DNA of 64,000 nucleotides from a virus. The DNA is taken from the IMG/VR virus record IMGVR_UViG_3300045125_000085, positions 80,007-144,006 of that record. The stretch is one strand, 5' to 3'. This document shows positions 37,476 to 63,856 of the stretch, in pieces; the stretch's first letter is position 1; each line of letters begins with the position of its first letter. The notes under the pieces were generated by a model. The model searched no databases, had not been told where the DNA came from, and saw only the letters and a program-made list of their open reading frames with translations. The translations under genes were made by a program, and so were the position numbers.

Positions 37476-37600
37476 GATACACCTCCAAAGATGTTACATT
37501 ACTCTAACAACCGAGCAGATTGTTAGAGCAGAAAGGAGGTTTATGATCTCAGCAGTAGGCTAAGATCATTCTAAGTATATGGGACTGTAAAAACTGCACT
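37476..37600 (-). promoter_or_regulatory. early promoter plus two-hairpin leader
   Basis: CATATACTTA; hairpin 1 at 37544-37568; hairpin 2 CTCTAACAA-TCTGCTCGG-TTGTTAGAG at 37502-37528; GGAGG. Confidence 0.85.
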
Positions 37601-37684
37601 ATAAAGAAAGCAAAAAAGAAGAGTGGTATAGAGGAGCCCGTAGGCCCCTCAGTGCTACTCTTTCCTATCAAAAGAAAGCGATGC

Positions 37685-38391
37685 TCCTAGCGTCGCTTTC
37701 ACTGAGCCTCCGGCCTTCTTTCTATTAAGCTCCTTCTTACTTCATTCTTCCTTGAAGTGATTTCGCCTTCCGTGGCGTTATATGCGGTTAGCTCATCCAT
37801 GATCTTCCACATCCTTAAATAACTCTACACCCAAGGCGTAGAGCTCTGGATCACCTTCCTTGGTGATCAGCACTTCCCATGCACCACCCGTCCAACCTCC
37901 TTGGTCGGACGAACTGTAGAGTGGCGCCATTCCTTTCAATGGCGCCACCGTATTCATACGACGCTTCCACGTCGTAACGAAGTCTGCCAAACTTCCTTGT
38001 TTTTGGTCCACAGAGAATTCCTTTTCTTTTCAGCGATCCTTGCTTCTTCTTCGCTCATCCTTGCGAATATTTTCATCCTTCATCCTGAACGCTTGCTCCT
38101 CGTCCTTGAAGGGTTTTAACGCTTCCTTGCATAATTCCCTGAAATCCTTTTCAAGAATATCCTTGGCCTCCCTGGCCTTTTTCTTCTCCATGAATTCCTT
38201 TTCCTCTTGCTCCCTCATCGGGAGCGTTACTAAAAGACATCCCTTTCTATTTCACGTCCTTGTTTAAGTGAATAAACCACCCCTTCCATAGGGGTTTTTC
38301 CTCTGTCAAGGACATACATGGTTTCCCATGTATGTCCGGCCACCCAAGCCTTCTTCCGAGAAAGAAAGCTAAAAGACTTCTGAATGCTCAT
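37685..38391 (-). CDS. early charged/coiled-coil hypothetical protein (frameshifted)
   Basis: ATG 38391 behind GGAGG; pieces 38030-38218 and 37793-38011. Confidence 0.5.
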
Positions 38392-38510
38392 AATACACCT
38401 CCTTGGGTGTTGGCTCTAAGCCCGAGCAGACCTAGAGTATTGATGGATAGCCTGCTTATGCAGGCTTTGGTTCATGCTTACTATGTGGGATTATAGCTTT
38501 TTGCATTTCA
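38392..38510 (-). promoter_or_regulatory. early promoter plus leader with hairpin 2
   Basis: CTCTAGG-TCTGCTCGGG-CTTAGAG at 38414-38437; different 5' hairpin (AGCCTGC-ATAA-GCAGGCT). Confidence 0.8.
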
Positions 38511-38526
38511 AAAAGAAAAGTAGAAG

Positions 38527-38566
38527 CATATAGCCCAGATAGCTTTAGTGCTCTCTGGGCTATATG
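38527..38566. repeat. CATA...TATG palindrome
   Basis: catatagcccaga...tctgggctatatg. Confidence 0.85.
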
Positions 38567-38569
38567 TCA

Positions 38570-40808
38570 GCTTAATTTACTATTCGTCATCGCACATAGT
38601 ACACCTCGGTATAAAGGCGCCAGTAGAGCGATTAGGCTCTACTGGCGCTATGCTGATTAGTTTAGCGACTGATGAGATAGCTACCACTCATGAGGTAGCC
38701 TTTATGCAGTCTATAGATCTGATCATCTCTAGTAATGATCAGATTATTCACTGACATATAGGGCCAGGCTTCCATTTGGGTGAACAAGCTACTAGCTAAC
38801 TCATACAGCATCGGTGTTTGCCGCTCATCTATCCTCAGTGGCTCCATATCACCGATCTCTATCGCTAACTCACTGCCGAGTATATCGACATAAGTCAAGC
38901 TATAGTTGATAGGAATAAATGACATATTAGCACTACCATGCATCTCGTCATCACTATCGCTCTCATCATCCTTAATATCAAAGCTTTCCTGATATCAGCT
39001 CGTACGACTTTATCTAGCGGACTGATCATGCGGTTCCCGAGCATTTCCATCTCGAACCTATCGTAAGCAGCTGAGTAATTACCATCATAGTTCTCACGCA
39101 GGTAATCTTTCAGGCTATCGATATCGCTAGTAAAGCTATCGATACTGATACGTCCCAGCGACAAGTTATACGTCAGAAACTGGTTAATGACGCTAGTCAG
39201 CCAGCTATCGATCTCGTTACAATAGAGTACGAGATCAGTCGCATCTTCGCCATCGGTGTCTTTCTGACTGCTGCAGGCTGTACCGATGCTCCTGAGCTTC
39301 TTAGCCATGTCGGTAAATCTACGCATGCTAAAGATCTGATCGTAGACGTTATCATAGCTCTCATCCGTCACGATAGGTTTAGCTATCAGTGACGAAGCTA
39401 CGATACAGACCACAAGCTCCTTTGACACGCTGCTGTCTACGGCACTCCAGCTTGACTCTAAAGATAGCATCTTCCAGGAATGAGCCTACGCTCCACTTCT
39501 TATCAATGTAGGTATTGATGAGGTCGAGGTTTTCGGCTTCGGGTTCAGTACCATCTACCGATATAGCGGCTTCGAGGTTCTCCCTACTGATAGCAGCCAT
39601 ATCTCGACTGGCATTAGTGATCTGCTCATTACGCAGTACGCCATCCAGCGTGTAAGAGTGATCCAAGAAAGTGATAGCGTGTATAGTTACGGTTCATCTG
39701 TGATTTCTCCAATGGTTTAACGACCTCGTAGACGCGATCGTTTCTTTTCTGATAGTAGACGTCGAACGCCGATTTATCGATCAACGTCCGGTAGGGTTGG
39801 CTGCTGCTAGGGATCCAGTCAGCTGCAGTGAGCGCCATTTCTAGCTGAGTGCTGTCCATAATAGGCTCCATGTCAGGGACTACACTAGGTGCAGCATCGG
39901 ACGACATATAGCGCGTATAGCTATTTTCATAATAGCTCGACGCCTGTAGTCCATTACCACCAGGTCTTCCCTAGAGTAGCCGGTCCTGTGGGTGGGGTCG
40001 GTGGTGGTGTAGGCTGCCCATACTGAGCAGGTGGTGGCGGTGCCGCGTTCTGACTAGTGTACTTATTGACGGCACCTTGCGTCTGCGAATAAGGAGGAGG
40101 GTAGCCCATCCCCATCCCCATCGGCGACTGCATCGGTCGTCCCAGAGTAGCACCACCAGGATACTGCGGTGCTCCCATACTCGGCTGCCCGTACGGCTGT
40201 GACCCGTACGGCTGCTGATATCCTTGTTGAGGCGAGTACCCATGTTGAGGATACTGCGGCTGGTACTGTGGAGGATATCCCGGTGACTGAGCAGGGTACT
40301 GTGGCTGATACTGAGGAGGAGCGAATCCTCCCATCCCCATCTGCGCCTTCAGATTAGCGATCTCTTGCCGTCTCGCATTTAAGAAGGCTAAGTTCTCCAT
40401 CGTGCCATTGATCAGCTGCGGCGTCACCATGCCTTTCAGATCAGGAAACTGATGTAGCTTCTCCGAGATCCAAAGTACATAAGTGTTGCTAGCTACTTCA
40501 GCCAGTATCTGACGCGGATCCTGCGCCATGCCTTTACGTAGATCGACTGCGATACTAAACGCAGCAGTCGAGACTACATCAGCAAAATCAGCATTCTGCC
40601 AATTGTTAGCAGCCAACAAGTTGAAGCAGAACATCCTTAACGGTGACTGACCTGAACGAGCCGATGCTTCGTTCGCAATTACCGTAGCAATGTCTGCTAG
40701 AAATGGATAGACCTCAGGTGGGACTTGCACCTGAGGGATAGTGGGAGGCGATCCAGGTGGGTACTGGACCGCTTGATGCTCGTAGGCATCGGCTCTGTGA
40801 GGCAGCAT
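38570..40808 (-). CDS. conserved phiKZ-like protein downstream of the nvRNAP subunit, with P/Q/Y/G low-complexity region (frameshifted)
   Basis: Consecutive ORFs 39954-40808, 39629-39907, 39379-39666, 38895-39470 and 38662-38943. Confidence 0.6.
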
Positions 40809-40819
40809 AGATTATACTC

Positions 40820-42450
40820 CTATTTGATGCCCTTTAACATACCTTCCGTATGCTCCACAAAGACTGGAACTTCGGATTACCGACGATCTCGCCGTTCGCT
40901 AAGTTCACGTGCATGTACGGATTCGCACGGATCATAGGTGTCGGATTGCTCTTGGGTAAGAACAATATCGAACCAGCTTCGATCATGCTGCTATGCAGTC
41001 GTTTACTAGCGTCTACCGTAGTACGAGTACGGCGACCACGTCTAGCTCCGACTACACTCTGCTGCTGCCCGATGACGCTCGTTAGTTTGAAGTACTTATT
41101 ATCACCCGAATAGCTGACGCTACCCGCAGCGATATTAGCTCTCGTCAAACCAAAGATACTACCAGGCTTCAGCAGCTTATTAAACACACCCATGACATCA
41201 TCCGCTGTTAGCGTCATACCTTTCTCTTGCTTCTTAGTATTTTGCTTAGCTAGTTGAAAAAGCTGTCTTAAATATACTAGTCTTAATATCGAACAGAGCA
41301 TAGTACAAGACTTCTAAGTTCTTACCGTAGACGGACTGGGTGACGTCCGATGAAGCTAATGTCCATTGGTTAAACTCCTTTAAGATGTAAGCCATCAGCT
41401 CGTAAAAGTCTGAGACTTCACAGCCGATTTCAGCGAGCTTTCTAGCGATGATGGGGTCGACATACTCATTTAAACTACCGAAGTGCTCTTGGATCTTCGT
41501 GTAGTTGACACCCATGCGGCTATTACCGAGAAGATGACTTCACCTAGCAGTATGATCCATAGCCTAGCATCCGTAATCGTCTCGATCGCTATACGCTGAG
41601 GAAAGTGATCGATGACGTAGAAAGCAACCTGCCATCAATGCCTGCGTCATCGCATTCCAATCTGACTTAGGCACCGCTACGAATAACTTGCTAGGGAAGT
41701 ATATGGGATCCATATACGTCTTGGGTTTAATCTGCAAAGACGTACAGACGACCCAATCGCTCGCTGGATAATCGCGCTCCGTATGCTCACCATACTCTCC
41801 GACTATAGGTGTCGTATTAGCGAACTTCTGGAAATGTCTCCATAAAGCCATACCGAGCAAACAAGTAATGCGCTACACAACTCTTCGCTTTAGTCGTAGG
41901 CGGTACTTTCTTCATTTCGGTGCTCTTTCTGAAGATTTCGCTCCAGACTACATACGTCTGCTCTCTACCTTGATTCGTTACGAACGAGACAGGCAAGCGA
42001 TAGAAGTTGACCTTATCGCGTTCGAGCCGTACGAATACGGATTGTCCTGTCGCCGATACACACTTATCCGTCAGTACGGGATGGATGTGATAGCAGGTGC
42101 CGCCTAGATGAATGATCCCCGCATCATCTACGAACGGCAAATACAAATACCTATCGAACTTACGGCCTTGATACTGGAACCAGAAGCGGACTTGATAGAT
42201 GTCGCTCCTAGCTAGATTAAGGATACGTCTGCCATTCCTGGCTTTTGTGACTTCTTCAAACTCTTCCTTAGGTGTACAGCGTTGATATCCTAGATACTCT
42301 AGCTCAGGTACTGAGCGTATCGCACCACCTAAATAGCTCGTCGATATATCGCTCTGCTAGAGGGATATACGTAGTAGCTAGTCCGTCACACACTGCCCGG
42401 TTCGGATACGGGACGTGCTTGTCTATCAGCTCCCTAAATGCTTTCTCCAT
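40820..42450 (-). CDS. non-virion RNA polymerase beta subunit, N-terminal part (phiKZ gp123-like; frameshifted)
   Basis: YLGYQRCTPKEEF, SDIYQVRFWF, YLYLPFV...G..YHIHPVLTD, RLERDK, YSGDNKYFKLTS, LHSSMIEAGS, RANPY. Confidence 0.8.
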
Positions 42451-42523
42451 CTTAGACTCCTATTGTAGTTAGTTTATGGATATCCTAGCCTTTTAAGGCC
42501 AGGACATCCTATATTTGCCATGA

Positions 42524-43662
42524 TTATTTTTTCATGACGACAGCGGCCACCCTAGCCCTGCGACTAGCGCCCCCGTAATGAACTTAAACCAGTCGTGGTT
42601 GTCCTTACAGATCGTAGAGAGCGTTGCTCGTAGTACGATTCACGCTCTAACTTCTGAGAATCAAACTTAGCTTTGAGTCTCTGGGCTTCGGCTTCCATGT
42701 CGAACTTCTCCTTCGCTAACTCCGCTTCCCGTTCTTTCATCTTCGCTTCCCGTGCATGTTGCTCAGCACGGATGCGTTCAGCTTCTTCTCTGAGCTTTTG
42801 TTCTAGCTGCTTGATCTTCTAGCTGCTTGATACTGAAGCGATGATTCATCTCAGCGACTTGCTCTTGCCTTAACGTCTTAACATCCCCACCCGAGATAGC
42901 TTCTTCACGTGTCTTAAATAGACCGAGCTTTTCTTCTGCTTCCTCTAGCTCGAACCTACCGACATTGATGATAGGCTTGCCGTACTGATCTTGATCCGTG
43001 ATACCGACATAGACTCCACTAGCACGTAAAGGATCTACCCGTGGCTTCAGCTGCAGTAGCTGCTTAGCTAGATAGATAAATCGCTCACCGATCTGATGCT
43101 CATTATCTATTAACTCTATAGAAAACGTCAAGCCATGTATCGTCTTCGCCATCTCCTGATAGCGCTCCTGTAAGAGCACTGAGTAAGAGTGCGGATGATC
43201 CGGTGCCTGGCTCGGATGATCGAGCGTGACGACGATATCACGATTCGCTATGTATAAAGAACGATGCTCCTCTAAACGCTCTTCCTTGACTACGCAGTCC
43301 AAGATGACTTGAATCGGTGTAAAGCGATGATCCTCATATTGGCGAAAGAACGATTCCTTAAAGATGCGAAAGTCAGCATAATCATTATCTTCCGAACGCT
43401 CTAAGAACAAACGCTGTAAATCCGAAATGCACTTACAGGCACCATGTACTCATCCCTGATAATAAACTCCTGCGAGTATGTGTCAGGAGTACTATCGATA
43501 CGATGCTTGGATATTGCTCCTATCTACTACCGTGATTTGATAGCGTGTGTGGTTGATATACACGGTACGTCGTTGTATACCACTCACGTGCTGATTAGGC
43601 ATCTCATACGGGCCATGGATCTTAGCGCGTACGAGACCGATTAAATGCTCAATGTCTAGCAT
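42524..43662 (-). CDS. conserved phiKZ gp122-like protein with C-terminal coiled coil (frameshifted)
   Basis: ORF 42778-43410 plus flanking frames; GGAGG-ATG at 43662; early-like CATATACTA upstream. Confidence 0.6.
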
Positions 43663-43720
43663 AGATACCTCCTATTGCTGCATTATTAGTATATGGGGAC
43701 ATACTGCATTCGACTAGACG

Positions 43721-43759
43721 GCATAGACAGAGGAGCTACTGTAGCTCCTCTGTCTATGC
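43721..43759. repeat. CATA...TATG palindrome with different arm sequence
   Basis: gcatagacagaggagcta-ctg-tagctcctctgtctatgc. Confidence 0.85.
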
Positions 43760-44227
43760 TGGCTTATGCATGGATGATTCCTAAATTGTAAGCTTCTTGT
43801 AGTCTAGCCTCAATCTCAATCATCAAGTAATGACCGAAAGCGTTCAGTATCGGAGTAGGCTGCTCTTCATTGACATACTGTCTAATAAACAATACGTTAC
43901 GACAATCCAGCTTGTGTAAATGATAGCCTAAATCCTACTACTGTCTGCAGCTCTTCAGGTACAGGCTGTACTCTCATACGGGTGCAGTAGCTGTAAATCA
44001 TCAGCTACATCCCCGCCTAGATAACCATCGAGGTAGATCTTAGCGATCTTAGTATCTGCTTGCAATATACCTTTCTGCTGAGTACCGTCGTATTCGACTA
44101 AGTGTAACTTAAGGTAGCGTTTCGCATACAGTGCTGAGTGGTATAGGTCTACGTGCAGCAGCAGTAGTCATGGTATACTCGGTAAAATACGAGCACCTAT
44201 CGCTAGATGCTCGTAGAGTGCTGTTAA

Positions 44228-45070: not shown

Positions 45071-45289
45071 TAGGACTCCTTAGTTTAAAAGCACTCATTA
45101 GCATATACAGCTTACCTAAAAATAAGGCAGCATAATACGCATCAACGCTGAGCCGACACTCAGTGCTATGCGTAAGTAATTCCAGCGTGGAAAAAAGGAG
45201 GCACCACGTAGGCACCTCCTTAAGATTTCCCTTTTCTCAGAAGAAGGTAATAGCAGTAAACGTGAGCACATCTACCACTATACGATACC

Positions 45290-45929: not shown

Positions 45930-46012
45930 GAGTATTACTCTCTTGTGGATTAAAAGGAATGAGCAGTAGGGTATGCTCATAAGTAATATATGCGTCCCTG
46001 TTTTATTTCAAT
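45930..46012 (-). promoter_or_regulatory. early promoter with exact TATATTAC plus 5' hairpin
   Basis: TATATTAC at 45983-45990 followed by ATGAGCA-TACCCTAC-TGCTCAT (45959-45980). Confidence 0.75.
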
Positions 46013-46109
46013 ATAGCACTATTTTTAAGTCAGGAACTAATGGTGTGCGACCTCATTAGTGAGGCATATTACTCATTTGTTTTCATCACGATCACATTAG
46101 GCTACACCC

Positions 46110-49177: not shown

Positions 49178-49265
49178 TGGTACCCTCAGGCCGGACTCGA
49201 ACCGGCACGCTCGTAAAAGCAAGGGATTTTAAGTCCCTGATGTCTACCAATTTCATCACTGAGGC
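49178..49265 (-). tRNA. trnL: tRNA-Leu(UAA), CCA encoded
   Basis: gcctcag...ttggtagac...gggacTTAAAAtccc, long variable arm, GGTTCGAGTCC, ctgagggtACCA. Confidence 0.93.
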
Positions 49266-50826: not shown

Positions 50827-52425
50827 AATTAAACCCATGCTGAAAAGAAAAAAAGACCGCCCCTAAGGAGCGGTCTCTGTGACTAGCTTAGATACGCCAG
50901 TGATTTACCTCCACAGTCACTGTATCTATTAGACTAGTCAGACCTAGAGTATTGAGCAACATCTGACATAGTTGCTGGACTGCTTCCAGTAGTTCAGCTG
51001 ACTCATACTCGACATACTCACGATCGCCGTAGTAAGGATCCTCTACCAGTTCACGCAAAGACACTAAATTATCCGGCATGATCCTAACGTGAATGAAGCG
51101 AGAATCCTCTAGGCTCACTAACTCCTTTACTCGCTTATATGCACGGACGATAGTCTCGTCTCTATACCACTGCGGATTTGAACCCATCCATGCCCTCACA
51201 TCCAGCATGAGATTATTTAAAGGAGTAGGTGAGTGGCCAGTATACCACACGGGTGACAGTCCTTACACACTTGTCAAACACTGGCAAGCGTGCCGGCATA
51301 TCGGCGATCGTCCGCACTATCCACCGTGACACGATGATCACGTCAGCTATCTCACCCATAGCCACCAGTTTATCCAGACTGGACTGCTGAAAGACATATC
51401 CTTTCTTAATTACTGAGCGGTTTCCTATGACTCGGTCTACGGTGACGGGCTCACGGTCTATAATATGAACCACGGATCCACCGCCATTTCACTAGACATA
51501 TCGAGAGTGGCTACAGTCCCGTCTGAAAAGACAAAGATTCAAGTTAGCCCTTGCATTCGTAAGCTGTAATTCGGTACGGGCCAAGCACATCACACGAGTG
51601 CCGTCTCTCAAAGTGATGACGGGGGCAGTTTTACCAGACATGGTATTACCTCTTCCTGCGATTAAAAGAGAGAGCTCGGTTAAGAACTCCCGTTAAGAAC
51701 TCTCGATGATTCACCAGCTGCAATTACACGCTACAGCAGTGAGATGACTCAGGCAGCGAGTGCTGCCTTCAAGTCCGCCAAGCTGACAGTTTTCCCTTTA
51801 CCGAGCACGGCCTTGGCTGCCGATACTTCGTTGAGCCGACTCCTTGGCTTCACTGTTCCGCTGCCTCAGCAGCTTCGCGTGCCTGGATTTCCTTTTCCAG
51901 GCTGACCTTTACAGCGGCTTCTTCTTCCTGAATCGCAGCCAATTCCTTTTGCGCCGCGAACAATTGAGCCAGCGTATCCTCGCTAGCTGAGAACTTAGAC
52001 TCCTCGGCATCCAGCCGAGATGCCGTGTCCTTGAACTCCGCCCTTGATCCAGGTAACTATCATGCTCATCCGTGATCTGGTCGATCAATTCCTTTGGCTG
52101 GATACGCCGCCTTACTTCCTGTAAGGTGGCCTCCCATGTCTGGGTGGGGAACCATTTGCCGTTACCCCAGTCCTGACTCCATGTCAGGACGTCATAACCT
52201 GGAGCCAGCTCCACCGTCCAGGTGGTGTGGCTCCATTTGCCTCTCTTGCTATAGCTCTCATCCAACACCCGCAATACTGGCGGTATGGATACCCTGATGA
52301 ACGGGAGTATGCCCTGCCCTGGGCACAGTATGTAATTCCGATGGTGTCGGCCACGGTGGCCCATTTGGTTGTTCAGGCGGTGGTCTTTACTTCGCTCATG
52401 ATACACCTCTTTAGTGTAAGAAATA

Positions 52426-52453
52426 CCCTACGCATCGAGCTAGATACGTAGGG
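52426..52453 (-). promoter_or_regulatory. pre-RBS hairpin 2 variant
   Basis: CCCTACGTAT-CTAGCTCG-ATGCGTAGGG upstream of GAGG. Confidence 0.55.
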
Positions 52454-52702
52454 CGGGAGGTGGTCAGTGGCTGCGTAGAATCATCGAAGATGATGTGCCG
52501 CAGTCGGGATGGCCGCTGCCACCACAGTAGCCTCCGACCTGGAGGCAGGTCGGGCAGCCGTCTTCCGTGACCAGTGCCATCCTTGGCTTTACCATCGGCC
52601 TTCTGGCCAGGGCAGCGACACTGCCCTTGATGGGGTTGAGATGTCGATATTTCGACGCGTGCGGTGATAGCGCTCATGATTACCTCCAAAGGTAAGAGTG
52701 GA

Positions 52703-52726
52703 CTCTAGGCCCGAGCAGACCTAGAG
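52703..52726 (-). promoter_or_regulatory. pre-RBS hairpin 2 (no own promoter)
   Basis: CTCTAGG-TCTGCTCGGG-CCTAGAG upstream of GGAGG. Confidence 0.8.
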
Positions 52727-53052: not shown

Positions 53053-53180
53053 GGTAACCTCCTAGGGTTAAATGAGTATAGATAGCTGTGTGACTTTCTA
53101 TACTAGAAAAAGTGAGTAATCTAGCCACCAGTAGGCTAAGATCATAGTAAGTATGTATAGCTATATATCTTTTCAATCCA
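53053..53180 (-). promoter_or_regulatory. early promoter plus two-hairpin leader
   Basis: TACATACTTAC; hairpin 1 at 53118-53144 nearly identical to 1529-1556; second hairpin at 53075-53104. Confidence 0.8.
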
Positions 53181-53281
53181 AGTTAAGTCGAGCATATAGG
53201 CTAGTGCTTTCACACTCAGCCTATTGCTAAGTTATTCTAGTAGACCCCTAGGCCGTACATTAGTAGGCCCGGTAGAGTGCC

Positions 53282-53919: not shown

Positions 53920-53923
53920 TCGC

Positions 53924-54148: not shown

Positions 54149-54161
54149 AGTAGCTTAGACC

Positions 54162-54353: not shown

Positions 54354-54354
54354 C

Positions 54355-55522
54355 TTAACTCACCACAGCTTCACTGAAGCTGATCGTGGCGTCTACGATA
54401 TCGCGGTAGAGTTTAAAGATGATTTTGAAATAAACAAAGCCTGCTGTCTGTGTAGCTAGATAGAGCAACCAGCTAAAGCGAGGCATAGTCTGGTATAGCT
54501 TAGGCATGTAGCGCAAATAATGTTCCATGCTATTCAAATACTCACCCATGGTGCGTAATATAGTCTCTATGTCGCTTTTCAATATACGCTCAAATACTAA
54601 TGGCGATTTATCAAAACTAGTGAGCTTAGTGTCAGTGATCTCGATTGCAGTTATTATCCAGATACAGCTTATCTCTAATAGAAGATTCAGGCAGGTTGAA
54701 GTTAAAGATAATGCCTTGGCCAGTAGGATAATAGACTGACTCTATCGTAATAGCGACTTTATCTTTCTTTACAGTTTTGCTAAACTCCCAGTTACCCGGC
54801 GTAAAAGGGTTACTGTGCTTATCAGCGTTGCTTTCGATCTCATCCACGATCTCAGCTAAGATCTTATCAAACCGATCATCAGACTCAGCTGTACTGATAG
54901 TCAAGAAATAATTAAGCATACCGCCACAGTTCGTACTAATGTCTTCATTAGCTCTCATGATAGCGCTGATGAAGTCTTTAATAGTGTCTACTCGGTTCTT
55001 AGTCGTAATGCCTTTGTAGCTAGTGTGGAATAATACCGGATCAGCTACCTTGATATTATCGAAACTATCCACTGGTGATGATCGCAGTTGTTTTAAAATA
55101 GCATCTATTTGCTTTTAGAAACCTTGGATGCCGCCATTGACTTCATTTTGCCAGCTTAGAAACTCCTCATGTAGTTTACCGAAGGCTTTTTTAAAGTCGG
55201 CTTCATTCTTACCTATTTGAATACCGAGCTTCATCAGCATGGAGTCGATGCCTTCTAAACTCGGTACGACTGAATCAGGTCGACAGGCGGTACCGGCGAC
55301 AGCCATGTTCGCTGCTATCCGGCATAATGTGCGGACTTCTGGGTTGTTTAAGCTTTCCTGACTGATAGATGCCTGTATCGCTTTCTGTTGTTCGATGATG
55401 AAGCCAGATCGCTTAATATCGGCTGTTAAATTTTCAATACGTTGCTCAGCCTCTAATGCAGCTACCCAGTGTGAGAGTGGGCTAGCTATCTGTAAGGCTG
55501 GCGTACGACGTGCTCGACGCAT
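54355..55522 (-). CDS. internal head protein, phiKZ inner-body-like family (frameshifted)
   Basis: MRRARR...ALEAE...SQES...IAANMAVAGT...VVPSLEG propeptide pattern; ORFs 55115-, 54632- and 54355-. Confidence 0.55.
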
Positions 55523-55604
55523 AGGTGTATCCTCAAAGGTGGGTAGATGTATCAAAAGCATTTGAAAAAAAAAGCAAGCGATCCAGAGCCCCGAAGGACT
55601 CTGA

Positions 55605-56397
55605 AGGCTCACTCTCTGGAGTGCTAGATCTCGGGTTGGGCACTCAATAGGGCTTCCTTGTCCAGGCCCGTGGACCTGCAGATGTTCCGACTTGTCGCAG
55701 CGAGCACCCTGCCCAGTTTCCGCACACATCCAGATTACCTTCCAGATAACCTTACCACAAAACCCGGCCAAGGAATTTCACCTTAGCCATATCGAGACAG
55801 ACCTTTTCCAGCTTCTAACACGCGGACGTTGCTCCTGCCAGACACCTCCAAGGATGCCGGTTGATCTCCGAAAACCCACCGAGCGAAGATAGGTAGAGCT
55901 GAGAAAATACCGATAAATTAGCTAGGGCGTCCGTGCCCCCTGAAAGCTCCGCCAGCCCCTATCTCTTTATCCAAAGCAGGCTGATTCCCTCAATCCCTTT
56001 CTGGGAAGGGGTCCTCGGGGGTGCCAATCTTGCAAGGCTCTTTACTCTCCGATACTGCTTCCCCACATACTTTCCATCCTTGCTGCACCGTATAGGCAGC
56101 TTTCTCCATATTCCCTCGTTTATCCAGCCGTACTCCGGCAGGATTTCTTCGGGTGCGGCTAATCGCCACTCCGAGGACTCCAAACCTTCTACCGGAGTAT
56201 CAAAATCCACAGGTCCTACCTTCCCTGTTATCTAAAGCATCCTTGTCCTTCCTTCGTCTAGCCATTTTAACGAGCCGTACCACTTAGGCTCGTACTTTGG
56301 CCTGCAGCCGTAGCCGCTGCCATCGACTAGCCCATACTCCCATCCTTGGAATCTGGTGGTATTCAATATTTCCTCTAATGTTAAAACTGTGCGTCAT
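55605..56397 (-). CDS. early hypothetical protein(s) (frameshifted)
   Basis: GGAGG-ATG (MTHSFNIRG) near 56397; terminator with UUCG loop at about 55585-55603. Confidence 0.45.
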
Positions 56398-56423
56398 AGT
56401 CACCTCCTATTTAGGTGCTGACC

Positions 56424-57001
56424 TCATGCCCGAGCAGCAGCGGTATTGAAAAGTTGATTGATATACACCCTACAACCGCCTTCCATGTAGTACGGCTTAC
56501 TGGCCTTCCTTGACGCATAAGCATCCGATACCGGATTACCCCCAAACCAACTAACCGTGACTTCTCTGTAAAGCAGTTGGAATATCCTTGGCCATAACTG
56601 AAAATATACGTTCAGCACGACAGTCGGCCATAACTCCACAGGTTGTCTAATGGCCGACCCCCACCAACACCTGAGTATCGCCGTGATCGCATCCTTGGTC
56701 GATACCCCGTTCTCAACAGAGTATAGATCTGCCATACATTCCCTTACCGACGGCAGTAATCTCTCCAATCCCTGCGGCTTCTCTCCATGGTGACCGAGCA
56801 ACTTATGCCCGATCTCGTGGAGAATAACGAATCTAAACTGCTCTTCCGTGAGTCTTTCTAAAGCCTCGCGTGAATTGTCACGCTGCCGTCTGAATTAAGG
56901 GCACCCCCTCCGCTTTCCTTAATGAAATCAATATCGTCCGTGACCGTAACATTGAGGTTAAGCATATTTACCAGTGATGCCAATACTTGAACATTGCTCA
57001 T
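56424..57001 (-). CDS. early M48-like zinc metallopeptidase (frameshifted)
   Basis: LTEEQFRFVILHEIGHKLLGH...RECMADLYS gives HExxH plus a downstream E..AD. Confidence 0.7.
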
Positions 57002-57130
57002 AATACACCTCCAAAGGGCATATGTTAACTCTACCAACTTGAGCAGTCTGGTAGAATAGAAAAAGGTTTACGATCTCAGCAGTAGGCTAAGATCATAAGT
57101 AGTATGTAGTGCTGTAAAAAACTCCAATGT
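57002..57130 (-). promoter_or_regulatory. early promoter plus two-hairpin leader
   Basis: TACATACTAC; hairpin 1 at 57071-57095; hairpin 2 TTCTACCAG-ACTGCTCAAG-TTGGTAGAG at 57029-57056. Confidence 0.85.
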
Positions 57131-57140
57131 AAGCAAAAAG

Positions 57141-57181
57141 CATAAGAGCCCAGAGAGCACGATGGCTCTCTGGGCTATATG
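57141..57181. repeat. CATA...TATG palindrome
   Basis: cataagagcccagagagc-acgatg-gctctctgggctatatg. Confidence 0.85.
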
Positions 57182-57219
57182 ATCGATTAGCTTATGCTGC
57201 CATCTCCAGCTCAAAGTGA

Positions 57220-57694
57220 TCAGACTGGTTCGTTTTCTTTACGTGCATTCCTTCGCTGTCTACGTAGCTGGTTCATGTACGTAGTGATCCTTTTCATGGG
57301 CGACTTTAGACTGCGATCCTGCAGTACTTCCCTAGGGATAATACCCCAGTGAGTGTAGTCTGGCTCACCATCGATCTCCCTGACTTGGATCGATACGCCG
57401 ATATCACTGACCTCCGCCACGACATCATTGTCGTAAAACGCGGAAGTACATAGTACCTATCTCCACTAGCAGATGACTGCTGTCATAGAGTCTTCTTTTA
57501 TTGAGCTGAAATCTTTGGTAGATTAGTCTACCGATAGGGATCAGCACATCCCACTTAAAGTGATATTGAAAGAAGTTCCTTTCTACTACGAGCCCTTCAG
57601 GACTCAGATGAAAGTGCATTCCGTCGCAATCGAACTCTAAGTCCCTGAGTATAAACTCCTTAGTTTCTACTGCATTGATTTCTTGGTTTGACAT
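57220..57694 (-). CDS. hypothetical protein (frameshifted)
   Basis: ORFs 57425-57694 and 57220-57420. Confidence 0.5.
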
Positions 57695-58067
57695 GACTGC
57701 TATGCTCCGCTATTATTACGGTTTAAGGAAAAGCTAGATACTTACAAAGGAAAGCTGTGAGTATCTAATACGTTACCATGAGCATCCAGCCTTTGGATGA
57801 TCAGACTATTTGCACTATACTCATTCCGCCATCTAGCATCTCTAATGAGATCAGTGATGACGTCACGATTGCGCTCGAAGCAGGCTTTATACTTCAGTCG
57901 TTCTTTAACGACGTTGGCGACTAAAGCACTGTCTTCTCTGCTTTAAAGAGTATCTGGACATAAACTACCTCATGGTAAAAAGGTGCTACGCTCATTCGGT
58001 AGCATTAAAAGTATATGCACTTGTAATTAAATGCATTCCATACTAACATAGCGTAAAAAATATCCAG

Positions 58068-58105
58068 CATATAGCCCTGAGAGCACGATGGCTCTCAGGG
58101 CTATG
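58068..58105. repeat. CATA...TATG palindrome after the capsid gene
   Basis: catatagccctgagagc-acgatg-gctctcagggctatg. Confidence 0.85.
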
Positions 58106-58159
58106 TGGCGGCTAGCCTAGATTACTAGTAGTCTTACGGCACTACGTGGTAGACGTGGC

Positions 58160-60344
58160 TTAAGGTACCACGTGGTTATTCACAGACAGCGGTACCTTGT
58201 TGAGTACATCAGGTACATTTTCTACCGTCAGTACAGCCATGATAGGCAGATGACTCACGTGCAGGAAGCGCGGACTGACCGCGATTTCACGAGAGATCTG
58301 ACCGTCACGTGAGATCGGCAGTACCAGAGTCAGTTCAGGACTCCACGCCATGTTACCGAAGTTCAACGGATTCGGCTCTACGTTACGGTTTTCATCGAAT
58401 ACGCCAAAGGTAATGAAGATCTTACCTGAGACGCGATGATCCAGCGTAGATACGATACGTACGTCGAACTGACCACCCAGCGTACGCAGATCGCCAGTCA
58501 CCGTCAGGTAACGAGCCAGTACCGGATCAGTACCGATGATGACGGTGGGTACCGGAGAGATACCGCCATTCAGAGCATCAGCTGCCGCTTTGTATTCAGA
58601 ATCCCGATACAGGCGATAGGCATGGTCACGGATCTTATTGATGATAGCGTTCTGCAGATCTTCTACACGGCTGGTCGAAGTCAATGAATCGACGATGGCA
58701 GACATGTCCAAGAGTTTCTTCAGAGAACTTAGGCAGCACGTAGAAGCGACCTACACCGAGTACGTCCGGCGGAGTGTTGTTGCCATCTCTAGCGTCGATA
58801 TAAGTACGCAGGATGTTAGCGGTATTGATCAGAGCGCCTACAGCCATATTCGAGGTACGAATACGAGTAGCGGTAATCAAGCTAGCCAGATCACCAGCAT
58901 CCGACTGACCGTCCATAGTCATGGGGTGGATAGCCGTAATCGGCGAACGCATCTGCACGTTGTACAACTGAGTGTAGTACGTGGTGTCGATCAGCTGACC
59001 GCGTTGACGACGGTTGATGTTGGTACGATAGGCTTGGAGTTCATAACCTATCACTTTACCACCGTTAGCAAACAGATCAGCCAGAGTCTTGCCTACGCCA
59101 GACTTCAGATCCAACTGGTTGCCAGCAGCATCAGAGACGCTGTGGATAGATACGTCATTGCCATAGACTGCGCAATCACCGAGTTCGATGTTGACTTGGC
59201 CAGACAGTACCAGCTTCAGACGTACGATCAGGTCGCCAGACTTGACGCCACCCAGAGCAGCCAGAGCACTACCGTCGAAGTTCTTAGTATCTTTGTTCAC
59301 CAGCACCGAAGTGGTAGAGAAGTTCAGATACATAATGCGATAGTTGTTTTGCTGTGCGTAAGCAAAAGTAGCCAGCGGCAGTTCATTCGTCATGAACTTC
59401 AGCACGTCAGTATGACCAGCGCCATCATCGACAGATACATACACGGTCGACAGGCGGATAGCCGGATCGATCGAGTCAGTAATGTCCATCAGACCTGAGG
59501 CCAGCAGAGTATCAGTCTGGCTGATACCCAGCAGTGACAGCGACTTACCTACTGCCAGAGGAGCAGTCGGAATGGTTTCGCCTTCCAGGTTCAGGTTATA
59601 AGGAGCTACCAGAGCGCTGTCTACAAACATCGCTTCAGATTCCGGACGATGTACCGGGATCAAGCGAGTCATTTCGTTCTTCAACAGAGTGTAGTCTGCG
59701 ATAGCACGAATGATGTTTTTCTTGTTGTAGTTATCCAGCGCACCAGAGATCTGACGATGCAGACCATTGTACACCATCATTAAACGGACAGTCACGCCGA
59801 AGCCGACGTTATCCGGAGTCACTACGATGGTGGGGAAGAAGGTTTCGCCAAATTCGTCCTGACGAGCCGCTTGCATGTTGTAAGCGATCGAGTAGACGGC
59901 AGCGTTACGGTTTTCCCGTTCGTCATAAGCTTCAAATGAAGGACGGACACCGACTACGTCATCCATGCCTAATCCAGTCATATTGACGATAGACATGTTT
60001 TCAGCAGCGATAGCAGGCATCTTCAGCCTTATGTGACAGGAACTGACGTACGTCACCTGCTAACAGACCTGCTGCAGTAGCTGCATCTTTCTGAGCCTGA
60101 GTCATTTCACCGCGCATACCGAGTTGGTCTGCGATTTGTTCTACGGCGATAGACAGACCTTCAGCTGCAGTGTTCAGCATATCTACTTGGTCGCTACGGA
60201 TAGATTCCATCGCCAGCGCAGCTGCTGGTTACAGCCGGGTTAGCATACTGATGGGTATCCAGGGATCTGACGCAGTGACTGCACTACCGTCTGCAACGGA
60301 GTCGGTGCACTGTGTCCTTGCAATTTCTTTTGGAAAAAAGACAT
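58160..60344 (-). CDS. major capsid protein (phiKZ gp120-like; frameshifted)
   Basis: SFEAYDE...SIAYN..AARQDEFGETFFPTIVVTPD, AYRTNINRRQRGQL, VIIGTDP, PRFLH..HLP; adjacent to DnaB as in phiKZ. Confidence 0.9.
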
Positions 60345-60379
60345 GTGTAGTCCTCGTAAGTTATAAAAGAGAAGAGTAG

Positions 60380-61048
60380 TGTGCTACATAGAGTATGAAC
60401 ACATATGGCCGTGAGTGGGTCGTGATGGATACCCTGCAGGCTATTTAAAGCTAATGTCAGGTAATCTATAAATACCGGCGTATGACAGACGTCACCCACT
60501 GGTACGAAGCCGTAGAGCGCTTTCAGGTAATCCGAGACGAAGCGGAGTGCGTACGTCCTATCCTGAAGCGCGTTCAGTATGCCCGGTTTAATATGAAGAT
60601 AGTATTGACGCGTAGGCGCCAATTCAAAATGGTAGTATTCTTCGCCATCGTCGATGTCAGCTAGTACTTTAGCACTGCCGTCACCGCTGTTAGTGCTCAT
60701 GAGTTGAGCACGCGCTTCATTCTTAATAGCTTCAGTCATAGCCGCAGGACTGATGACGGTGCAGTATTCTACATCTTTATAGGCTTCACTACCGCCGACC
60801 TGACCAGCCATGCCCCAGCCATCACTCATACGCTGCGTATTCGCTAAGTATGGGCCGAAGAAGTTAATGCGTTGAAGAGCAGTCAACATGATTAAGTCAT
60901 TGACCGATAGGATTTTGCGTAAAGCCTTGTAATCACTAATGGTGTTCGTAGGGACTTTAGCTAAACGAAATGCCTCTCTTAACCAGCTAGGTATGACATA
61001 GCCGCGCGGCATAAAGCTCGCCTGCATACATCTCCATGTAAGTAGCAT
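60380..61048 (-). CDS. phiKZ gp119-like protein upstream of the capsid gene
   Basis: Position and ORF 60284-61048; the C-terminus is probably extended by an indel. Confidence 0.55.
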
Positions 61049-61328
61049 ACGGTGCTTTTAAGAAAGGGTTGTAAATCTGCATACGCCCCGACGGACCTTT
61101 ATCGAGATACGTCGCCTGTGAGTCATGATAGGCCATAAGTGGCGACCTCCATAGGGTCGTTCCGGTGAAAATGAGGAAAAGATAGAGTATGAGTCTATAC
61201 GATACATCCTCTGTAGAGCCTCAATCTACCGCACTCTCAGTACGATAGATAAGAAAAATTCAGGCTACTCGTTACATGGAATGACCCTTTACTCCACGAC
61301 CTTTATTATCGATTTAGAGATTCGCCCG

Positions 61329-62864
61329 ATGGACAACCGACTCCTCCTCGTCAAAAGCATCACGCTCCTGTATCGCGAAAGCCAACTCATCCATAAGACG
61401 GCTAATAGTGCTGACTTAGTCCGCACTGTGTTAGAAGCCGTCACTATCCCAGGATGCAGGCATCGGTATCAGTGGTGAGCGTGAAATACTCCTCGGCCTA
61501 GGGATACGGCGATCGAGATGTGTAATAACTCACTCGATCATGAATACGCCATGGATGACTTATTACAGCGTGTCCGCTTAAATTGCGGTGATGATGAACG
61601 CTTGTATCAAGTCATTAGCGATGGCTTAAAGGACCTGAAGTCTGAAGGTCATTTAAAAGCGTGCTATCATTAACGCACAAAAGTCTTCGCATAACTTCTT
61701 CCGTGAGCAGAAGATCAATGAGATACTGAATAAAGCCAGCTATCAGTTTAAGTACCATCGTGATAAAATCACCGATGTCAATGGCTTTATTAGCGAACTC
61801 GTAAACCAGTTAGAACCTTTACAAATCGCTAATGGCGGCACTGATCCTGCTATCACTAGCGATATCGATATCGGCGATGTATCGTCATTGTCACGAGTGT
61901 TTAATAACATCCAAGATCAGTCTAGCGATATAGGTATATTGAAGACTGGTTGCAGCGCGTCAATGAGATGCTGAATGGTGGTTTTCGTAGAGGTGAGTTC
62001 GTTTGCGTACCGGCTTTACAGCATAAGTACAAGACGGGCTTTAGTCTATCATTGTTTAAGCAGTTCGCTATCTACAATAAACCACACATGCTAGACTCGT
62101 GGCAGAAGCCTTTGATCCTGCGTATCTCGTTTGAAGACGATATAGAGCTGAATATAAAGTTCATGTACCAATCGCTGATGATGGAAGAGTCGTATGAAAA
62201 AGCACTCGACCTGAAAGTCTCTACGGACGTCATGAGCAGCTATATCAAAGAACGACTGCAAGTCAATCGGCGGCCAGTGTCAAGATGATACGCGTCGATC
62301 CGTCGTTATGGACGTATAAGCACATTTGTAATAAAGTCTTAGAACTCGAAGCTCAAGGCTATGAAGTCCATGTACTGATGGTAGACTACTTGTCTAAGCT
62401 GCCGCGTACCGGCTGTAACAATAGCGGGCCTACGGGTACTGATTTGAGAGACATGTACTCTAGGATGCGTAACTTCTGTGCGCCTAGGAAGACGTTGTTT
62501 ATTACACCGCATCAGTTGTCGACGGAGTCTAAGCAGTTATTACGCTCAGGTATGCCTGAGGATCGCTTTCTGAAAGAGATGGCGTGGAAAGGTTACTTCG
62601 AGTCGAGCCGTCAGTTAGATCAAGAGTACGACGTAGGTCTGTATATGTGCATGTGTTTAAGCATAATAAGGAGAGCTGGCTTTCCGTACTGAAAGAAAAG
62701 CATAGAGGTCAAGATCACTGGTGAGGATGAGCAGTTTGCTTTGTATCAGTTTCCCTAAGGTGAAGCTGCCTATAGCTGATGATCTGTTGGGTGAGAATAC
62801 CGCCTATCTGAAACTACCGAGTGCGAGTAGTAATACGGATAGTGATCTGTTTAGCTTTAAGTAA
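61329..62864 (+). CDS. dnaB: DnaB-like replicative helicase (phiKZ gp118-like; frameshifted)
   Basis: MDNRLLLVKSITLLYRES, GGFRRGE...ALQHKYKTG, ISFEDD, VDYL, TPHQLS, KHRG. Confidence 0.9.
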
Positions 62865-62880
62865 AAAAAAAGAGAGTGAG

Positions 62881-62920
62881 CATACAGCCCAGAGAGCACT
62901 ATGGCTCTCTGGGCTATATG
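62881..62920. repeat. CATA...TATG 40-bp palindrome
   Basis: catacagcccagagagc-actatg-gctctctgggctatatg. Confidence 0.9.
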
Positions 62921-62925
62921 ACGTC

Positions 62926-63257
62926 TCTCTACCAGTCTATCTCTGACTGGTTTATTGACATGGCTTTCATGTGTAAATCGTTTAGTCCTCTACATACGGT
63001 AGAGGACTTTCTCCCAGTTAATCCGCTTAAGTGGGTGATGGAGAACGACTATGCCCTTTTCCCTAACCTCTACGACGGCCGTGTCATAAATCGATGTTCA
63101 CACTCACTTCTATGCCATCCTTGGCATAGATGACGCGCGAAGGCACCACGGCATCGCCTGATGCCAATCCGACTAATTCAACAATGATGTTTTCAGGAAC
63201 GCTCATTACGTTCCAGTCGTCCAGAAATAGATGGCCTGTCGTCAATGTCACTTTCAT
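62926..63257 (-). CDS. early hypothetical protein, paralog of 37142-37475 (frameshifted, missed by ORF track)
   Basis: MKVTLTTGHLFLDDWNVMSVPENIIVELVGLASGDAVVPSRVIYAKDG...KRINWE. Confidence 0.75.
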
Positions 63258-63279
63258 AAACACCTCCTAAAAAGTATAT

Positions 63280-63304
63280 GCTAGCGACCGAGCAGATCGC
63301 TAGC
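63280..63304 (-). promoter_or_regulatory. pre-RBS hairpin 2 (no own promoter)
   Basis: GCTAGCGA-TCTGCTCGG-TCGCTAGC upstream of GGAGG. Confidence 0.85.
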
Positions 63305-63324
63305 GGTGTGAAGATCAGATAAGG

Positions 63325-63726
63325 CTATTGCCGTTTCGTATCATAAAGATGCGGGAACAACTCCTTGTCGTCTACGTCCTTAGCAATACTGGATTAATCC
63401 CTCTATGGTGTCCCAGCCTGTTTCTTTCACATCCTTTCCGACGGGACGTAATCCTCATCTTCTTCCTCAAAGAAACCAGGAAGCAAGATCTTGGCTGTAT
63501 TCCAGCCATAGCGCACGATCGCTATGGCCTTCGTAGCACTCGTCTGAGTATACATTCCGTCCGCTCCTTCCTCTCCTCCGTGTAGGTATGAGGCCAGCGC
63601 CGCCACGAGACCAGGGTCTACCCAGTCTTCCTTCAACCCAGCAGCCGCTTTCACGACGAGTTTTTGCACGGCGCATCCTGGCTCCCAGTTCATCCCTGTT
63701 TCTGCCCAATCGAGTATATGGCTCAT
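63325..63726 (-). CDS. early hypothetical protein
   Basis: ORF 63427-63726 behind the conserved leader; probably extends via an indel. Confidence 0.6.
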
Positions 63727-63856
63727 AGTACACCTCCGAAAATAGGAGTGGGCTCTATTAGTCTGAGCAGTCTAGTAGAGCATAAAAAGAATGAAACAAT
63801 CTCAGCAGTAGGCTAAGATCATAAGTAATATGTATAGCCATATTTAGCTGGAATCC
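63727..63856 (-). promoter_or_regulatory. early promoter plus two-hairpin leader
   Basis: TACATATTAC; hairpin 1 at 63798-63821; hairpin 2 GCTCTACTAG-ACTGCTCAGA-CTAATAGAGC at 63752-63781. Confidence 0.85.

What the first reader, a model, noticed from the sequence alone, without database searches (positions are those of the whole stretch)
37502..63781. Covarying pre-RBS RNA hairpin with conserved CUGCUC(G/A)(G/A) loop in front of early genes: candidate new cis-regulatory RNA motif
Seen: on the minus strand, about 12-17 nt upstream of a GGAGG/GAGG RBS, the same loop sits on largely different stems. Instances are CUCUAACAA-UCUGCUCGG-UUGUUAGAG (37502-37528), CUCUAGG-UCUGCUCGGG-CUUAGAG (38414-38437), CUCUAGG-UCUGCUCGGG-CCUAGAG (52703-52726), UUCUACCAG-ACUGCUCAAG-UUGGUAGAG (57029-57056), GCUAGCGA-UCUGCUCGG-UCGCUAGC (63280-63304) and GCUCUACUAG-ACUGCUCAGA-CUAAUAGAGC (63752-63781). 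Variants lie at 52426-52453 (loop CUAGCUCG), and CUGCUCGGG occurs at about 56430 before another RBS. Most imperfect pairs are G-U on the minus strand, which points to RNA. At 52703, 52426 and 63280 the hairpin precedes internal operon genes with no promoter, so it is tied to translation starts. Inference: a protein- or sRNA-recognised tag coordinating early mRNAs. Possible roles are a translational enhancer or shut-off switch, a processing site, or an export/handling signal for transcripts made inside the early vesicle or phage nucleus. I know of no described motif like this.
Basis: partly seen in the sequence, partly recalled or inferred. Interest (0 to 1): 0.88.

Follow-up and report, generated by a model that had tools for sequence, protein, structure and literature searches.

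The report
Start-codon-pairing hairpin in phage early leaders
A small RNA hairpin found 14 times in front of early genes of an uncultured nucleus-forming giant phage is real: it keeps its pairing while its sequence changes, and its loop is complementary to the start codon region of the gene behind it, so it probably folds onto the start site to control translation, a leader design I could not find described anywhere.

Summary
All six listed hairpins and the 52426 variant are on the minus strand at the stated coordinates. They end 21-28 nt before an ATG, with the Shine-Dalgarno (SD) 11-16 nt after the hairpin. The contig (144 kb, about half a chimallin-encoding phage genome) holds 14 copies with 13 different stems: 110 Watson-Crick and 10 G-U pairs out of 124. 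A covariance model built from seven copies recovered two held-out copies as its next-best hits. Rfam has no match.

The hairpin (hp2) is the middle part of a modular early leader:
- an AT-rich early promoter, also found upstream of the chimallin gene (chmA) here and in a 53%-identical relative;
- a 5'-terminal hairpin and a pyrimidine-rich spacer;
- hp2;
- a weak hairpin holding the SD;
- AUG.

The new point is that the loop is complementary, in one register, to nt +2 to +5/8 (the UG of AUG plus codon 2) in 13 of 14 copies. It also changes with codon 2:
- GCUC(G/A) with AUGAGC;
- GUUCA with AUGAAC;
- CACA with AUGUGC.

So the conserved loop is best read as an anti-start sequence forming a pseudoknot, not as a tag for a trans-acting factor. 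Support for this is moderate: two or three independent changes and marginal energies. I found no relatives carrying the element and no RNA data. Another first-stage note of this scan also described this layout in the same genome.

The parts
37502..37528 (-). hp2 copy: 9-bp stem, loop UCUGCUCGG, 26 nt before ATG 37475
   Evidence: (46.4 bits)
38414..38437 (-). hp2 copy: 7-bp stem, loop UCUGCUCGGG, 22 nt before ATG 38391
   Evidence: (held-out hit, E 0.015)
52703..52726 (-). hp2 copy, operon-internal with no promoter, 25 nt before ATG 52677
   Evidence: (held-out hit, E 0.009)
52426..52453 (-). hp2 copy with loop UCUAGCUCGA, operon-internal, 26 nt before ATG 52399
57029..57056 (-). hp2 copy: loop ACUGCUCAAG, 27 nt before ATG 57001
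63280..63304 (-). hp2 copy with the standard loop but start AUGAAA; the only copy without loop-start pairing; its promoter looks decayed
63752..63781 (-). hp2 copy: loop ACUGCUCAGA, 25 nt before ATG 63726
37564..37583 (-). Early-type promoter motif (CAYATA-N-TA..ATGATC) of the 37502 cassette. Equivalent motifs lie at 1552-1571, 38470-38489, 53140-53159, 57091-57110 and 63817-63836.
37545..37567 (-). hp1, a hairpin at the predicted 5' end of the transcript. Equivalents lie at 1530-1555, 38449-38466, 53118-53143, 57072-57094 and 63798-63820.
37474..37499 (-). hp3 region: a weak hairpin with GGA of the SD in the loop and the rest of the SD in the 3' arm. Equivalents lie at 1463-1480, 38395-38410, 52402-52418, 52680-52695, 53055-53070, 56999-57024, 63260-63277 and 63734-63748.
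37469..37475 (-). Start codon plus codon 2 (AUGAGCA). Nt +2..+7 are complementary to the hp2 loop. The same register holds in 13 of 14 copies.
55863..55901 (-). Decayed cassette remnant: spacer, broken hp2 and SD, but no ATG
37079..37136 (-). Terminator-like hairpin plus U-run. A near-identical copy lies at 38512-38568. Together they bracket the two cassettes at 37502 and 38414.

Best explanation
The hairpin (hp2) is the central module of a standard leader of about 82-102 nt, used for small accessory early genes of an uncultured chimallin-encoding (phiKZ-like) phage.

Order of parts:
- an AT-rich early promoter, presumably read by the virion RNA polymerase;
- hp1 at the 5' end of the transcript;
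- a single-stranded pyrimidine-rich spacer;
- hp2;
- a short linker;
- hp3, which holds GGA of the SD in its loop and the rest of the SD in its stem;
- 3-5 nt, then AUG.

The 3' part of the hp2 loop is an anti-start sequence. It can pair with the UG of AUG and with codon 2, making an H-type pseudoknot whose long connecting loop carries the SD. Together with hp3 this closes the translation initiation region.

The likely function is cis control of translation initiation: setting, delaying or allowing shut-off of early protein synthesis. The spacer may serve as a ribosome standby site.

Shown: the repeated architecture, hp2 covariation, the fixed distance to the ATG, and loop-start complementarity with changes on both sides.
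Inferred: the transcription start, that the pseudoknot actually forms, and its effect on translation.

The units also look like portable promoter-leader-ORF-terminator cassettes.
For: hp2 structure:
- 14 copies, all on the minus strand, with 13 distinct 5' arms; 120 of 124 positions pair.
- Covariation is 0/500 in shuffles, and held-out copies were recovered by the model.

Link to the start codon:
- The hairpin-to-ATG distance is 21-28 nt, including three promoterless copies.

Loop-start pairing:
- 13 of 14 copies have a 4-7 bp helix between the loop and +2..+5/8, always in the same register.
- Loop class follows codon 2: nine AUGAGC copies carry a GCUC loop; three AUGAAC copies carry GUUCA; one AUGUGC copy carries CACA.
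- Summed helix length is 74, against 45 when the loops are paired with other genes' starts (P < 5e-5). A within-family permutation gives P = 0.0011.
- In the column test 83.8% of cells pair, against 22-44% when slid. Two pairs change on both sides. The covariation score is reached by 7 of 500 shuffles.
- Hairpins before other genes rarely show this pairing: 2 of 48 reach 5 bp. There is no genome-wide signal outside the family.

Other points:
- hp3 is predicted in 14 of 14 copies.
- The promoter motif recurs about 20 times, essentially only on the minus strand, including upstream of chmA. The same matrix finds 6 sites on the coding strand of a relative's contig, against 0 in shuffles.
- The downstream proteins are unrelated to each other, so gene duplication alone does not explain the shared leader.
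Against: - The independent events are few: one or two changes for GUUCA/AAC and one for CACA/UGC. The copies are paralogous, so the shuffle statistics overstate significance.
- The energies are marginal. The loop-start duplex averages -6.4 kcal/mol. Forming it means opening loop-internal pairs that cost 0-6 kcal/mol, before any pseudoknot penalty.
- In one copy the loop is only the five pairing nucleotides, which is sterically awkward.
- One copy (63280) keeps the loop but has lost the AGC codon.
- hp3 covariation is not significant on the MAFFT alignment (77/500), and its z-scores are modest (mean about -1.2).
- AUGAGC also starts a few genes that lack hp2.
- No related genome carrying the element was found, and there are no RNA data.
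- The assembly has indel errors.
Confidence: 0.55

Rival explanations
1. The loop is a recognition tag for a trans-acting phage or host protein, or for an sRNA. Such a factor would be a translational repressor or activator that binds the hairpin at a fixed distance from the SD. The match to the start codon would then be incidental, or part of a protein-stabilised switch.
For: Ten copies keep the loop core, including flanking nucleotides (UC..GG) that the start pairing does not need. The stem base CUCUA/UAGAG recurs in 7 of 14 copies. The distance to the SD is fixed. Hairpin operators with conserved loops are common in phages, for example T4 gene 43 (PMC3014915).
Against: Four copies with the same architecture have different loops, and each of these matches its own codon 2. 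A sequence-specific reader would not tolerate that. No candidate binding protein was identified. Shared flanking nucleotides may simply reflect common descent.
Confidence: 0.18
2. The hairpins mainly act on mRNA fate. They would be barriers against 5'-end-dependent decay or RNase E, a processing site between cistrons, or, for hp3, a presentation of GGA for a RegB-like endoribonuclease that shuts off early mRNAs.
For: hp1 sits at the predicted 5' end, and hp2 and hp3 leave little single-stranded RNA near the start. Promoterless copies lie between cistrons. [quoted passage not shown] That is the geometry predicted for hp3.
Against: A stability role needs neither a conserved loop nor loop-codon-2 covariation. 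The stems (7-12 bp) are too short for RNase III (my own knowledge). No RegB family match was found in the 144 kb held, though this is only about half the genome.
Confidence: 0.14
3. hp2 is a conditional premature terminator or attenuator in the 5' UTR for the phage RNA polymerase. It would yield short leader RNAs, as reported for many phiKZ 5' UTRs.
For: phiKZ has many termination sites inside 5' UTRs that give short RNAs of about 70 nt, and its terminators are hairpins followed by TTAT (PMC10914365). hp2 ends roughly 60-75 nt from the predicted start, and it is often followed by UUAA- or UAAU-like sequence.
Against: There is no U-run after hp2. The terminator-like hairpins seen after cassette genes in this genome do have long U-runs. 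hp2 also occurs at promoterless internal sites at a fixed distance from the ATG. An attenuator does not explain the loop-start covariation.
Confidence: 0.06
4. The repeats matter mainly at the DNA level. They would be conserved linkers for recombination that shuffle ORFan cassettes, like PeSLs, with the RNA folds a by-product.
For: The units are complete: promoter, leader, ORF and terminator. Two cassettes are bracketed by near-identical terminator repeats. The cargo is unrelated ORFans plus a STIV B116-like protein and an M48-like fragment. PeSLs behave this way (PMC2839356).
Against: Recombination linkers should keep their sequence. Here the stems differ in 13 of 14 copies while pairing is kept, with a G-U bias that points to RNA. 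This role does not exclude the RNA function.
Confidence: 0.05

Closest known systems
PeSL cassettes of T4-type phages (promoter-early stem-loops; PMC2839356)
   Same: These are repeated composite elements of about 100 bp in front of small ORFan early genes. Each combines an early promoter, a stem-loop, an SD and an ATG. Their stems contain G-T pairs. The units are modular and self-contained, with their own terminators.
   Different: PeSL promoters are sigma70-like, and the stem-loop sits in or beside the promoter and acts as a terminator. Here the promoter is the AT-rich phage type. hp2 lies inside the 5' UTR at a fixed distance from the ATG, has no U-run, and its loop matches the start codon region.
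Pseudoknot translational operators (E. coli rpsO/S15 leader, my own knowledge; T4 gene 32 leader pseudoknot, PMC3014915)
   Same: In these, a hairpin loop pairs with downstream leader sequence at or near the initiation region, and the fold governs ribosome access.
   Different: Those are single-gene autoregulatory sites bound by the encoded protein, and the T4 gene 32 pseudoknot lies well upstream of the start. Here one design is reused on 14 unrelated genes, the pairing covers the AUG and codon 2 itself, and no binding protein is known.
Early promoters and 5' UTRs of phiKZ-like phages (PMC7598289, PMC8244752, PMC10914365)
   Same: A conserved AT-rich motif of about 10 nt lies upstream of early operons, located near -10. 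Some phiKZ 5' UTRs carry regulatory structure or short RNAs.
   Different: phiKZ 5' UTRs are mostly 31-40 nt. These leaders are about 82-102 nt with three hairpins. The papers I read describe no repeated leader hairpin or start-pairing loop.
Lambda nut boxB / HK022 put RNAs (my own knowledge)
   Same: These are small hairpins with a conserved loop in early transcripts just downstream of early promoters.
   Different: They act on the polymerase and are positioned relative to the promoter and terminators. hp2 is positioned relative to the ATG, occurs without a promoter, and its loop varies with codon 2.
SD-sequestering hairpins and the ompA-type two-hairpin 5' UTR (my own knowledge; mobE example cited in PMC3014915)
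   Same: They combine a 5'-terminal protective hairpin, a single-stranded segment, and a second hairpin next to or covering the ribosome binding site.
   Different: Those need no conserved loop and show no loop-start complementarity.

Membership tests
Any Rfam family | Match to a curated covariance model | tested here: not met
   cmscan of window 37000-64000 at E <= 1 gave only a tRNA and chance-level hits. None fell on a hairpin.
PeSL (T4-type promoter-early stem-loop) | Strong sigma70-like -35/-10 early promoter | tested here: not met
   The shared upstream motif is CAYATA-N-TA..ATGA(T/G)C, with no -35/-10 layout. It fits the AT-rich early motif class of RNAP-encoding jumbo phages (PMC7598289).
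PeSL (T4-type promoter-early stem-loop) | Stem-loop within or beside the promoter, acting as a terminator | tested here: not met
   hp2 lies about 35-45 nt downstream of the predicted start inside the leader and has no U-run. Separate hairpin-plus-U-run terminators follow the cassette genes.
PeSL (T4-type promoter-early stem-loop) | SD and ATG at the 3' end; association with ORFans in variable regions | tested here: met
   A strong SD and an ATG follow every copy. The cargo is mostly small proteins with no Pfam family.
PeSL (T4-type promoter-early stem-loop) | Recombination between copies (mini-circles, cassette exchange) | not testable with these tools
   No close relative or read data were available. 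Only flanking terminator repeats were seen.
H-type pseudoknot translational operator | Hairpin loop pairs with downstream sequence overlapping the initiation region | tested here: inconclusive
   Complementarity is present in 13 of 14 copies in one register. Two pairs change on both sides, and 7 of 500 shuffles reach the score. But the energies are marginal and there is no probing.
H-type pseudoknot translational operator | Loop lengths compatible with a pseudoknot | tested here: met
   The loop leaves 1-3 nt 5' of the pairing and 0-2 nt 3' of it. The connecting strand is 21-28 nt across a 7-10 bp stem. This is judged against standard pseudoknot geometry from my own knowledge. The exception is the 5-nt loop copy at contig 42222.
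H-type pseudoknot translational operator | Bound by a regulatory protein | not testable with these tools
   No candidate was identified.
Early (virion RNAP) promoter of RNAP-encoding jumbo phages | Conserved AT-rich motif of about 10 nt upstream of early operons | tested here: met
   About 20 strong matrix hits, all on the gene strand, including upstream of chmA. There are 6 hits on the coding strand of relative L041, against 0 in shuffles.
Early (virion RNAP) promoter of RNAP-encoding jumbo phages | Mapped transcription start about 10 nt downstream of the motif centre; early timing | not testable with these tools
   No sequencing run holding this DNA was listed.
RegB-type cleavage site | GGA unpaired with the fourth G constrained, plus a RegB nuclease in the phage | tested here: inconclusive
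   The hp3 geometry fits. No PF10715 match was found in the 144 kb held, which is about half the genome.

The most novel reading that the evidence does not exclude
The leader is a phage-wide translational gate. The anti-start pseudoknot and the SD hairpin would keep a whole set of accessory early mRNAs closed until a dedicated factor opens or re-closes them. Candidates for that factor are an injected or ribosome-associated phage protein, a helicase, or the 30S subunit docked on the pyrimidine spacer. This would give a nucleus-forming phage selective or timed translation of plug-in cargo genes (one cargo is STIV B116-like, the family that includes AcrIII-1). The anti-start loop would be re-tuned each time a cassette acquires a gene with a new second codon.
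Probability: 0.2. Interest if true: 0.85.

Novelty: new variant of a known kind. Interest (0 to 1): 0.62.

Why it matters
Early gene expression of nucleus-forming jumbo phages is known mainly at the level of promoters. Post-transcriptional control of their early mRNAs is almost unexplored.

This element is a compact, reusable leader that puts 14 unrelated genes under one RNA design. Its loop appears to be matched to each gene's start codon region. If that pairing is functional, it would mean three things:
- it is a simple, testable rule for cis control of translation start sites;
- it shows how portable expression cassettes adapt to new cargo;
- it could serve as a building block for phage engineering.

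It also yields a promoter matrix and a covariance model for finding early genes in this uncultured lineage.

Tried and rejected
Searches for relatives that carry the element all failed.
- Exact-pattern scans of viral contigs returned only unrelated single hits or none.
- The two genome-contig scans returned nothing or about the chance number of coding-sequence hits.
- My metagenome contigs pattern was badly chosen.
- The search for related loci with the SbcC-like protein found nothing.
- Homologues of the STIV B116-like cargo protein are at most 52% identical.
- The nearest chimallins are 53-57% identical, on short contigs that carry the promoter motif and a 5' hairpin but no hp2.
- The nearest isolates, Burkholderia phage FLC9 and Xanthomonas phage RTH11 (about 30% identity), have neither the hp2 model hit nor the promoter pattern.

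Sequencing runs: none was listed, and no RNA holder was listed.

Readings considered and rejected:
- tRNA anticodon-loop mimicry. GCU would read AGC, but the Cys-codon copy has CACA rather than GCA. The only tRNA on the contig is Leu-UAA.
- A general habit of this genome. Genes outside the family show no upstream complement to their start region.
- A DNA palindrome operator. The G-U bias and the compensatory stem changes argue for RNA.
- An RNase III site. The stems are too short.

Weak result: column-based covariation for hp3 was not significant.

I did not scan whole genomes of distant chimalliviruses for analogous anti-start loops.

Full report
**Context.** The window is the last 64 kb of a single 144,006-base IMG/VR virus record that CheckV rates 49% complete. 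The record encodes a chimallin (PF25677) and an SbcC-like protein about 30% identical to those of Burkholderia phage FLC9 and Xanthomonas phage RTH11. It is therefore a deep-branching, uncultured nucleus-forming (phiKZ-like) phage. The nearest chimallins in public data are 53-57% identical and sit on short metagenomic contigs. The assembly carries indel errors: the chimallin gene aligns to a relative in three successive frames.

**Observation.** The hairpin's 3' end lies 21-28 nt before an ATG, and the SD begins 11-16 nt after the hairpin. On seven copies, 95% of cells pair, five of nine pairs change on both sides, and no shuffle in 500 reaches the observed covariation. Slid controls pair in 25-43% of cells. 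A covariance model built from those seven scored the two copies I had held out as its next-best hits (E 0.009 and 0.015), and all nine good hits are on the minus strand. Rfam has nothing here. The CUGCUCGGG near 56430 is not a convincing member.

**More copies and the full leader.** Reading upstream showed that the hairpin belongs to a larger repeated unit. A position matrix for the shared upstream motif, CAYATA-N-TA..ATGA(T/G)C, finds about 20 strong sites, essentially all on the minus strand, including one upstream of chmA. It also led to further cassettes. In all there are 14 copies, nine in the window and five upstream of it. They have 13 different 5' arms and 110 Watson-Crick, 10 G-U, 2 C-A and 2 A-A positions.

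Folding the leaders from the predicted start gives the same picture each time:
- a hairpin at the very 5' end (hp1);
- a pyrimidine-rich single-stranded spacer;
- hp2;
- a weak hairpin (hp3, -3.2 to -7.4 kcal/mol) with GGA of the SD in its loop.

The same promoter matrix finds six sites on the coding strand of a relative's 25-kb contig, upstream of chmA and of an RNA polymerase subunit among others, against none in shuffles. The literature states that RNAP-encoding jumbo phages have a conserved AT-rich motif of about 10 nt near -10 of early operons (PMC7598289). This supports reading the motif as the early promoter. Three copies (52703, 52426, 63280) have no promoter hit. The module is therefore tied to the start codon, not to the promoter.

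**The loop.** In 13 of 14 copies the loop can form a 4-7 bp helix with nt +2 to +5/8 of the gene behind it, always in the same register. The loop's C(G/A) faces the UG of AUG, and the nucleotides before it face codon 2.
- Nine copies start AUGAGC and carry a GCUC loop.
- Three start AUGAAC and carry GUUCA.
- One starts AUGUGC and carries CACA.

These are two positions of the helix changed on both sides.
- The summed helix length is 74, against a mean of 45 when the loops meet other genes' starts (P < 5e-5). Permuting starts within the family gives P = 0.0011.
- On a MAFFT alignment the six pairs are 83.8% paired, against 22-44% when slid, and the covariation score is reached by 7 of 500 shuffles.
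- Hairpins in the same position before other genes seldom reach 5 bp (2 of 48). Outside the family there is no genome-wide signal.
- The exception, 63280, starts AUGAAA where its paralogues read AUGAGCAAA, and its promoter looks decayed.

**Limits.** The copies are paralogues, so there are only two or three independent events. The loop-start duplex averages -6.4 kcal/mol, while opening pairs inside the loop costs 0-6 kcal/mol. Any pseudoknot would therefore be marginal or would need help. hp3 is predicted everywhere, but its covariation is not significant and its z-scores average about -1.2.

**Mechanism.** The most economical reading is a cis-acting translational gate. The loop of hp2 folds onto the start codon and codon 2 as an H-type pseudoknot whose connecting strand carries the SD, and hp3 half-buries the SD. 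The open pyrimidine spacer could act as a standby site for the 30S subunit. This explains three things: why the loop is conserved (most genes start AUGAGC), why it changes with codon 2, and why the distance to the ATG is fixed even without a promoter.

Rivals are:
- a trans-acting reader of the loop;
- mRNA protection or processing, which includes a RegB-like cut at the exposed GGA; the T4 review notes that RegB prefers exactly that geometry, but I found no RegB homologue in the half genome held;
- premature termination of the kind seen in phiKZ 5' UTRs;
- a recombination-linker role.

**Comparison with known systems.** The cassette logic resembles the PeSLs of T4-type phages, but the promoter type and the stem-loop's position and role differ. 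The pairing resembles pseudoknot operators such as rpsO or T4 gene 32, but here it is reused on 14 unrelated genes and covers the AUG itself. phiKZ leaders are mostly 31-40 nt. I found no description of a comparable leader.

**Verdict.** This is a real, previously undescribed leader motif. There is moderate evidence for a start-codon-pairing loop. It is known so far from a single incomplete genome.

Noticed in passing
contig 23075-24966 (locus L002:3275-5166), minus strand: The chimallin gene aligns to a 629-aa relative in three successive reading frames, with frame changes near 23835 and 23321. This suggests indel errors in the assembly, which warns against trusting short ORFs elsewhere on the contig.
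   Followed up: partly
window 37452-37475, 52376-52399 and 1350-1460, and contig 1863-1883; all minus strand: The ATG behind four cassettes opens only 8, 8, 37 and 7 codons, while a longer ORF continues in another frame. At 37475 an extra A in an A-run separates MSK from a 107-aa ORF that is paralogous to two other genes. These are probably assembly indels rather than leader peptides.
   Followed up: partly
window 63087-63257 and 37142-37465; contig 55459-55758; all minus strand: Three paralogues of a small protein family (N-terminus MSKVTLTT..DDWNV; 62% identity between two of them), each behind an early leader. No Pfam family for the copy tested (63087-63257).
   Followed up: partly
contig about 25000-25030 (upstream of chmA); loci L041 about 7940-7960, L042 about 1560-1580 and L043 about 5100-5120: The chmA leader holds a conserved GCAUGCAUGC-type palindrome preceded by a hairpin, in this phage and in three relatives whose chimallin is only 53-57% identical. 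It may be a separate conserved leader element.
   Followed up: no
window 49182-49265, minus strand: tRNA-Leu (anticodon UAA), the only tRNA found on the contig.
   Followed up: yes
window 37079-37136 and 38512-38568: Near-identical hairpin-plus-U-run terminators, 1432 bp apart, bracket two complete promoter-leader-ORF units. This suggests cassette-wise gain or duplication.
   Followed up: partly
contig 41851-42195 and 31557-32048; window about 56800-57001; all minus strand: The cargo behind the leaders includes a STIV B116-like (DUF1874) protein, which is the family of AcrIII-1 ring nucleases. It also includes an M48-like HExxH fragment, with a second HExxH-bearing stretch that appears broken by a stop after 47 codons.
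   Followed up: partly
contig 55758 leader, minus strand: An AUGAGC gene without hp2 still carries UGCUC about 26 nt upstream of its ATG, just after a long hairpin. This may be a variant of the anti-start arrangement.
   Followed up: no
locus L041:2378-2470: In a relative's contig the gene caller placed a start on the ATGAGC inside the promoter motif. The real start is probably about 70 nt downstream, after a 5' hairpin.
   Followed up: no
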